A DNA stretch of 46,614 bases, taken from the IMG/VR virus record IMGVR_UViG_2713896798_000017; one strand, 5' to 3'. Positions 45,001 to 46,614 of this stretch are shown piece after piece. The stretch comes from a virus (taxonomy: Duplodnaviria > Heunggongvirae > Uroviricota > Caudoviricetes). How positions within the stretch are numbered: the stretch's first letter is position 1; the number at the start of each line of letters is the position of its first letter. A program made the position numbers.

Positions 45001-46614
45001 TGGGAGCTGATAGACAACAGCCAGCTTGCGGATGAGATGGCGGAGATGAAGACCACCATCACCGAAACCCGCAATGAAATCACACAGACGGTCAGTAAAA
45101 CGCTGGAAGACCAGAGCGCCACCATTCAGCAGATACAGCGCGTGCAGAAGGACACAAATGATGACCTTGCTGCACTTTACATGCTGAAGGTACAGAAAAC
45201 AAAAAATGGCATACCCTATGTTGCCGGTATTGGAGCGGGGATTGAGGATACTGATGGCCAGCCCCTGAGCAACATACTGCTGCTGGCTGACCGTATCGCG
45301 ATGATAAATCCGGAGAGCGGCAACAGCACGCCGTTATTTGTGGCGCAGGGGAATCAGCTGTTCATGAACGACGTGTTCCTGAAGCGGCTGTTTGCGGTGA
45401 GTATCACGTCATCCGGCAACCCCCCGGCGTTTTCCCTGACGCCGGAAGGGAAGCTGACAGCCAGGAACGCGGATATCAGCGGAGCAATTACCGCGAATAC
45501 CGGCACGCTCAATAATGTCACCATTAACGAGAACTGTGTCATCAGAGGGAAACTGTCTGCAAACCAGATTGAAGGCGACCTGGTGAAGACGGTGGGGAAA
45601 GCCTTTCCCCGGAATAACAGTTTATGCCAGCGGGACGGTAACCGTCACAGTTTACGATGACCAGGGCTTCGACCGGCAGATTATCATTCCCCCGGTGCTG
45701 TTTCGCGGGACGAAACACCAGAATTTCAACAGCCCGAATCAGCAGTCGTACTGGTATTCCACCTGTAAGCTGCAGGTGCTGAAGAACGGGGTTGAGATTT
45801 CCATGAACCGGCAACGGATGTCAGCCGGTGTTCTCATCGCGGTGATAGATATGCCGGCAGGGCGGGGTCATGTCACCCTGACGTTTAATGTGTCGTCGGC
45901 CGGTGCGAACAACTGGACGCCGACAACGTACATCAGTGATTTACTGGTTGTGGTCATGAAAAAATCCACTGCAGGGATCAGTATCAGCTGACGGTTTATT
46001 AACCCGGACGGGCACCTCAGGAGGTGCCTTTTTTATTGACTGAAAACAAAGAGGTAATCATGCGGCATTTATACGCAACGATATTATTGTTTACTACCCT
46101 GCTGGCAGGAATTGCCTTTCCTGCACAGGCTGAAAGCGGACACGGTGCATTTTCCGTGGGATATGCTCAGGTTCACCCGGGCGGCGTACCGGCATTGTCC
46201 GGTACCGGTGCGCGTGCAGGTGATTTAAAAGGGATTAACGTGAAATACCGTTATGAGTTCACGATCACCTGGGCGGCATTGTCGCGCTGAGTTATGCATC
46301 GGTGAAGAAAAGTGACACGATGAAGACGGGTGAAAATACCTTCCATTATGAAAGCCTGCGCGGTCGTTATGTCAGTCTGATGGCCGGCCCTGTCTGGCAG
46401 TTCAGTGAGCGGGTCAGTCTATGGCATGGCCGGGATGGCGTACACCCGCTGGTCTGACAGTGTTCAGGATTACCGGCGTGATGAAGTGAAACCGGGGTAT
46501 GTGAAGGAGACCACCACCGCCAGTGATGGTCATACTGCGCGTCATCTGTCGCCGGCCTGGAATGCCGGGATTCAGTTCAGTCCCGTAGAGACGGTGGTTA
46601 TTGACCTTGCTTAT

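What the first reader, a model, noticed from the sequence alone, without database searches (positions are those of the whole stretch)
45587..45660. Frameshift near the 3' end of J separating the C-terminal domain
The J reading frame ends at 45660 after about 18 junk-like codons, while the expected C-terminal sequence (…[34 protein letters not shown]… to 45991) is open in another frame. The shift maps to adjacent homopolymer runs (GGGG AAA … TTT CCCC) at about 45594-45610. A truncated J would lose the distal domain, unless this is an indel sequencing error.
Basis: seen in the sequence. Interest (0 to 1): 0.4.

Follow-up and report, generated by a model that had tools for sequence, protein, structure and literature searches.

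The report
Probable sequencing-error frameshift in phage J
One extra T splits the tail-tip gene J of an E. coli lambda-like prophage just before its receptor-binding domain, but it is one of six private indels packed into the last 1 kb of the window, so it is most likely a sequence-quality artefact and at best an ordinary prophage pseudogene.

Summary
Alignment to intact homologs shows one extra T (TT to TTT) at 45621-45623. The GGGG/AAA/TTT/CCCC runs at 45594-45610 are identical to intact J genes. Twelve out-of-frame codons follow, not 18, and the stop is at 45658-45660.

Intact J is 1158 aa. The break comes after Ser1036, at the N-terminal edge of Pfam PF12421, the gpJ C-terminal receptor-binding domain. 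That domain continues in the +1 frame to 45991.

The +T is not alone. The final 1 kb holds five more indels:
- -T, -G and +CG inside the receptor-binding domain, scrambling 14 codons;
- -G and -TC in lom.

The same 2.6 kb has no substitutions against the closest relative, a prophage of E. coli SCPM-O-B-7615. About 38 kb of the rest of the window is essentially identical to that relative. None of the six indels or their protein products occurs in any collection searched, and draft contigs often end in this stretch.

The best reading is consensus error near a contig end (about 0.8). A genuine pseudogene is the main rival (about 0.15). Recoding is rejected. Interest is low.

The parts
42514..45660 (+). 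Truncated J (tip attachment / host-specificity protein) ORF: 1036 authentic codons, 12 out-of-frame codons and a stop.
   Evidence: ORF. Pfam FNIII-A_GpJ, Phage-tail_3, Ig_J, Ig_J_second and Phage_Tail_Tip are present, and PF12421 is absent; 1-834 aligns to lambda gpJ (PDB 8iyk).
45621..45623 (+). TTT run holding the one extra T (TT in intact J). This is the frameshift itself.
   Evidence: alignment with three E. coli or Stx1-phage J genes. (ins_in_window T at 45621 against L004).
45622..45660 (+). Out-of-frame tail [12 protein letters not shown] plus the TGA stop.
   Evidence: window against the intact translation.
45623..45991 (+). The receptor-binding domain of J (Y1037 to S1158 plus stop), now in the +1 frame.
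   Evidence: PF12421 Ig_GpJ_C, E 8.7e-35, profile positions 18-135 of 135; aligns to PDB 9wca (A8 gpJ) and 8xcj (lambda gpJ713).
45800..45841 (+). A 14-codon scrambled patch inside the receptor-binding domain ([14 protein letters not shown] instead of [14 protein letters not shown]). It is caused by -T (T run 45798-45800), -G (45827-45828) and +CG (45838-45841), which sum to zero.
   Evidence: none of 1533 genomes shares it.
46061..46614 (+). lom (Ail/Lom outer-membrane protein), cut by the window end and broken by -G at 46263 (GG to G) and -TC at 46418-46419 (TCTC to TC).
   Evidence: the best genomes are identical apart from these 3 gap positions.

Best explanation
The extra T at 45621-45623 is most likely a consensus or base-calling error. 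The last ~1 kb of the window looks like a low-quality stretch at the end of a draft contig, in a J-lom region that is repeated among lambdoid prophages and often breaks assemblies.

On this reading the organism carries an ordinary intact 1158-aa J. Its C-terminal Ig-like receptor-binding domain is about 80% identical (my count over the C-terminal ~190 residues of the alignment) to that of the OmpC-recognising 'A8' gpJ chimera.

Shown: where the indel is and what kind it is; that all six indels are private; that they cluster; that no substitutions accompany them; and where the domain boundary lies.

Inferred: that the cause is technical, and that the window ends at a contig end.
For: 1; against the closest relative (L004, E. 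coli SCPM-O-B-7615 prophage), window 44000-46614 has 0 substitutions but 6 indel events, at 45621, 45797, 45828, 45838-9, 46262 and 46417. Outside a recombinant patch at 40-44 kb, the other ~38 kb has 1 substitution and no indels.
2; six events within 797 nt of 41.3 kb gives a scan probability of about 1.6e-8 under uniform placement.
3. All six lie in 2-4 nt homopolymers or dinucleotide repeats (contexts), the usual sites of consensus indel errors.
4; over the same 2.1 kb, the window has 6 gap openings and 0 mismatches. Twenty-six natural relatives carrying 6-55 substitutions have no gaps at all.
5. The indels are private:
- no complete E. coli genome or phage record shares them;
- the 30-mer containing TTT is absent from IMG/VR, the GTDB representatives and JGI metagenomes, while the TT form is in 59 IMG/VR contigs;
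- none of six predicted broken products exists among about 15 billion proteins.
6. The window starts exactly at the integrase stop codon (a gene-based boundary) but ends inside lom. Fourteen of 59 IMG/VR loci also end within this 2.2-kb stretch.
Against: No reads, quality values or coverage are available, so the error is inferred and not observed.

Genuine J frameshifts do occur in prophages. Several IMG/VR loci carry other uncompensated 1-nt indels in the J 3' part, and three of them share one at about the same position. The prior for a real pseudogene is therefore not small.

No indel falls in the last 197 nt, so error density does not simply rise toward the end. That the window ends at a contig end is also an inference.
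Confidence: 0.8

Rival explanations
1. The prophage is genuinely decaying. The +T is a real mutation, so J is made as a 1048-aa protein with no receptor-binding domain. Tails might still assemble on the N-terminal hub, but the virions could not bind their outer-membrane receptor. lom is also inactivated.
For: The prophage carries another lesion, an IS2 insertion at 17352-18681. Uncompensated indels in the J 3' region are seen in other assemblies, one of them shared by three IMG/VR contigs. Some O157:H7 complete genomes annotate only a 'phage tail tip domain-containing protein' over this stretch instead of gpJ.
Against: One frameshift is enough to inactivate J, so nothing selects for four hits in 220 nt of J plus two in lom. 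Six indels with no substitutions in 0.8 kb, in a prophage otherwise identical over about 38 kb to a relative, does not fit neutral decay. None of the six indels is seen in any other genome.
Confidence: 0.15
2. J is expressed by recoding or as a split gene. Either a programmed +1 frameshift or transcriptional slippage restores full-length J, or the receptor-binding domain is translated separately and joins the truncated J.
For: Only that the downstream frame stays open to the normal J stop at 45991.
Against: Every homolog examined has a single frame. The site AGT-TTA-TGC is not a known slippery motif, and a 3-nt T run is too short for transcriptional slippage (established knowledge of recoding sites; no experiment was run). 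The first start codon in the +1 frame is GTG 45695, 24 codons into the domain. I also saw no AGGAGG-like ribosome-binding motif in the bases just upstream when reading the sequence. The domain would still carry the 14-codon scrambled patch.
Confidence: 0.02

Closest known systems
J of lambdoid prophages and Stx-converting phages of EHEC/EPEC E. coli (e.g. WP_338460538.1 in NZ_CP144926.1; BCI49091.1 of Stx1a-converting phage Stx1_14040, LC567819)
   Same: From 44000 to the window end the nucleotide sequence is identical to the NZ_CP144926.1 copy apart from the indels. The gene order is also the same: K, I, sodC (opposite strand), J, lom, tail fibre.
   Different: The window has +T at 45621-45623 and three further indels in the receptor-binding domain. 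The N-terminal 1.5 kb of J lies in a recombinant patch with 67 of the 142 substitutions.
Bacteriophage lambda gpJ (PDB 8iyk, 8xcj/8xck)
   Same: The domain series is the same: hub domains, FNIII/Ig, alpha-helical shaft, beta-prism central fibre and C-terminal Ig-like receptor-binding domain (PMC11101478). The break corresponds to about lambda residue 1010, and the lost part to lambda 1011-1132 (my count on the alignment).
   Different: The receptor-binding domain sequence diverges from lambda's LamB-binding domain. This J is 26 residues longer.
'A8' gpJ chimera (PDB 9wca/9wcb), an engineered lambda gpJ with a natural C-terminal portion that recognises OmpC
   Same: It is the best solved match to the C-terminal 295 residues (E 4.8e-136). 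The chimera uses OmpC of MG1655 and EDL933 (bioRxiv 10.1101/2022.09.30.509847).
   Different: It is not identical, at roughly 80% over the C-terminal ~190 residues by my count. OmpC as the receptor for this J is an inference and was not tested.

Membership tests
Lambda-type tip attachment protein J (gpJ) | N-terminal hub and FNIII/Ig domain series, plus the tail-tip fibre region | tested here: met
   PF24801, PF13550, PF24421, PF24489 and PF09327 are all above their curated cut-offs. E = 0 to lambda gpJ 8iyk.
Lambda-type tip attachment protein J (gpJ) | C-terminal receptor-binding domain (PF12421) in the same reading frame | tested here: not met
   the 1048-aa ORF has no PF12421. The domain lies in the +1 frame (45623-45988, 120 bits against 132 bits in intact J). 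It would be met after removing one T.
Lambda-type tip attachment protein J (gpJ) | Position in the tail gene cluster (L, K, I upstream; lom and side tail fibre downstream) | tested here: met
   and the collinear alignment to L004. The side tail fibre lies beyond the window end.
Programmed frameshift / recoding site | The two-frame arrangement is conserved in homologs | tested here: not met
   homologs are in a single frame; the TTT form is found nowhere else.
Programmed frameshift / recoding site | A slippery motif, or a long homopolymer for slippage | tested here: not met
   Sequence at 45619-45627 is AGT TTA TGC, so the T run is only 3 nt.
Assembly or base-calling artefact | Indels are private to this sequence, sit in short repeats, cluster together, and come without substitutions | tested here: met
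Assembly or base-calling artefact | Low coverage or low quality, or conflicting reads, at the site | not testable with these tools
   No reads or quality values are available for the window.
Prophage pseudogene (genuine decay) | The same lesion is seen in independent assemblies or related strains | tested here: not met
   there is no second occurrence of any of the six indels or their products.

The most novel reading that the evidence does not exclude
The six indels are real and record a burst of localised frameshift mutagenesis (for example error-prone repair synthesis at a break in the J-lom repeat). The prophage would then make tails with an RBD-less J, or J would be expressed in two pieces.
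Probability: 0.02. Interest if true: 0.4.

Novelty: not a real feature. Interest (0 to 1): 0.05.

Why it matters
The main value is for annotation. J here should be read as an ordinary 1158-aa host-specificity protein with a probable sequence error, or be flagged 'frameshifted'. It should not be read as a naturally shortened tail tip.

If the lesion were real, the prophage could not adsorb to cells, because it would lack the receptor-binding domain. That is a common and well-known kind of prophage decay in EHEC/EPEC genomes.

The window's last 1 kb (45.6-46.6 kb) should be treated as unreliable for any other finding made there, including the broken lom.

Tried and rejected

2. The window's RBD patch [14 protein letters not shown] as the ancestral frame and the common form as derived: rejected, because a J only 76% identical in nucleotides keeps PATDVSRVFSS.

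3. Looking for the source, or any second copy of the lesion. Nothing was found by any route:
- exact look-ups of the truncated J and the lom fragment;
- six exact products in the 15-billion-protein collection;
- k-mers across the indels in viral, genome and metagenome contigs.

4. Looking for a sister prophage through the private IS2 junction: none in IMG/VR or in complete E. coli genomes.

5. Recoding or a split gene: rejected, because there is no slippery site, no conservation of the arrangement, and no usable start codon before codon 24 of the domain.

6. Structure prediction was not run. Pfam and the alignments to solved gpJ chains already fix the domain boundary.

Full report
**What the window is.** The window is a lambdoid prophage of E. 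coli. It starts exactly at the stop codon of the integrase gene and ends inside lom.

Its closest relative in 5,426 complete E. coli genomes is the prophage next to tRNA-Ser and hyaA in strain SCPM-O-B-7615 (NZ_CP144926.1; loci L004 and L005). The match is as follows:
- Window 1-5506, 8164-17351 and 18682-40000 are 100% identical to it. Window 5503-9053 has one mismatch.
- The window carries a private IS2 at 17352-18681.
- It lacks the relative's ISKpn26.
- It has a recombinant patch at 40-44 kb, covering K, I, sodC and the start of J, with 142 substitutions.

**Check of the observation.** The J ORF is 42514..45660, 1048 aa. Intact homologs in E. coli chromosomes and in Stx1a/Stx2a-converting phages are 3477 nt, 1158 aa. 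From the J start to the normal J stop the window has 3478 nt.

A four-way alignment puts the single extra base in a T run. The window reads AACAGTTTATGCC and all three intact genes read AACAGTTATGCC, so the site is 45621-45623.

The intact protein reads ...[29 protein letters not shown].... The authentic sequence therefore continues through Ser1036 (AGT, 45619-45621). Only 12 codons ([12 protein letters not shown]) are out of frame before the TGA at 45658-45660. The +1 frame carries Y1037 to S1158 and the normal stop at 45989-45991.

**Which domain is detached.** Pfam assigns intact J residues 1035-1158 to PF12421, 'Tip attachment protein J, C-terminal receptor binding domain'. The truncated ORF keeps all other gpJ domains and loses only this one. 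The +1-frame fragment 45623-45988 matches PF12421 over profile positions 18-135 of 135.

By the alignment to the solved lambda gpJ chains, the break corresponds to about lambda residue 1010. In lambda the C-terminus is an Ig-like receptor-binding domain whose loops insert into LamB (PMC11101478).

The best solved match to this C-terminus is 'A8 gpJ 713' (PDB 9wca; E 4.8e-136). That is a lambda chimera carrying a natural C-terminal portion that recognises OmpC (bioRxiv 10.1101/2022.09.30.509847). OmpC is therefore a reasonable guess for this J's receptor, but it is only a guess.

**The frameshift is not alone.** Comparison with L004 shows five more indel events downstream:
- -T in the T run at 45798-45800 (TTTT to TTT);
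- -G at 45827-45828 (GGG to GG);
- +CG at 45838-45841 (CG to CGCG);
- -G at 46263 in lom (GG to G);
- -TC at 46418-46419 in lom (TCTC to TC).

The first three sum to zero. The +1 frame therefore stays open, but 14 codons are scrambled: [14 protein letters not shown] replaces [16 protein letters not shown] that is only 76% identical in nucleotides (Lambda_2E9) keeps FQQPATDVSRVFSS, so the window's version is the derived one. The PF12421 score falls from 131.7 to 120.2 bits.

**Why an artefact is the best reading.**
1. *No substitutions accompany the indels.* Between 44000 and 46614 the window has no substitution against L004 but six indel events.
2. *They are tightly clustered.* All six lie within 797 nt, 197-993 nt from the window's end. 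About 38 kb of otherwise identical sequence has none. A scan-statistic approximation gives about 1.6e-8 for such clustering.
3. *They sit at error-prone sites.* All are in 2-4 nt homopolymers or dinucleotide repeats.
4. *Natural variation here looks different.* Among 59 IMG/VR loci with the intact TT form, 26 carry 6-55 substitutions and no gap over the same 2.2 kb. The window has 6 gap openings and 0 substitutions.
5. *The indels are private.*
   - The best complete genomes differ from the window only at the gap positions, for both J and lom.
   - Phage records behave the same way.
   - The TTT 30-mer is absent from IMG/VR, the GTDB species representatives and JGI metagenomes.
   - The truncated J, two possible downstream products and three lom fragments are absent from about 15 billion proteins.
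6. *The window probably ends at a contig end.* Its left edge is a gene boundary and its right edge falls inside lom. Fourteen of 59 IMG/VR loci also end within this J-3'/lom stretch, which is duplicated among prophages of one genome.

**Rivals.** A real pseudogene cannot be excluded without reads. The prophage has an IS2 insertion, and other assemblies show uncompensated single-base indels in the J 3' region, including one shared by L049, L056 and L059. Broken J genes therefore exist in nature.

Neutral decay does not explain the pattern, though. It would not produce six private indels and no substitutions in 0.8 kb of a prophage that is otherwise identical to a relative. Selection for inactivation would need only one hit.

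Programmed frameshifting or a split J is rejected for these reasons:
- Homologs use a single frame.
- AGT-TTA-TGC is not a slippery site.
- The first start codon in the +1 frame is GTG 45695, 24 codons into the domain.
- The scrambled patch would remain.

**Verdict.** The domain-level interpretation is right. The most likely cause is sequence error near a contig end (about 0.8). A genuine but ordinary prophage pseudogene is the alternative (about 0.15). Neither reading is novel.

Noticed in passing
window 46061-46614: lom (Ail/Lom outer-membrane protein) is broken twice, by -G at 46263 and -TC at 46418-46419. It is otherwise identical to lom of many EHEC/EPEC prophages, and it is cut by the window end.
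   Followed up: yes
window 45800-45841: A 14-codon scrambled patch inside the J receptor-binding domain comes from three compensating indels (-1, -1, +2).
   Followed up: yes
window 17352-18681: There is an IS2 insertion (orfA 17398-17808, orfB 17766-18671, 33-nt imperfect terminal inverted repeats). By the L004 annotation it lies in the intergenic stretch between a hypothetical gene and an HTH-domain gene, about 0.8 kb upstream of the tRNA genes. The junction is not found in IMG/VR or in complete E. coli genomes.
   Followed up: partly
window 40000-44000: A recombinant patch spans K, I, sodC and the first 1.5 kb of J. It has 142 substitutions against an otherwise identical prophage, and the best single match elsewhere is only 98.4% (strain E110019).
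   Followed up: partly
window 41853-42380 (- strand): A Cu,Zn superoxide dismutase gene (sodC) sits on the opposite strand between tail assembly gene I and J, as in the SCPM-O-B-7615 prophage and many EHEC prophages.
   Followed up: no
window 19482-19731: Three tRNA genes (CAT anticodon, called Met by ARAGORN and Ile in RefSeq; Arg-TCG; Arg-TCT) lie upstream of the SASA esterase and lysis genes. This is the layout of Stx-phage late regions, but the related locus L004 has no stx annotated.
   Followed up: no
L049, L056, L059 (IMG/VR), at L004 coordinates about 35694-35700: Three IMG/VR contigs from different source genomes carry a 1-nt deletion at about the same place in J (around codon 895). 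This may be a real, inherited J frameshift allele.
   Followed up: no
window 1 and 46614: The window begins exactly at the integrase stop codon and ends inside lom. This suggests a predicted provirus bounded on the right by a contig end. Fourteen of 59 IMG/VR relatives end in the same 2.2-kb stretch.
   Followed up: partly
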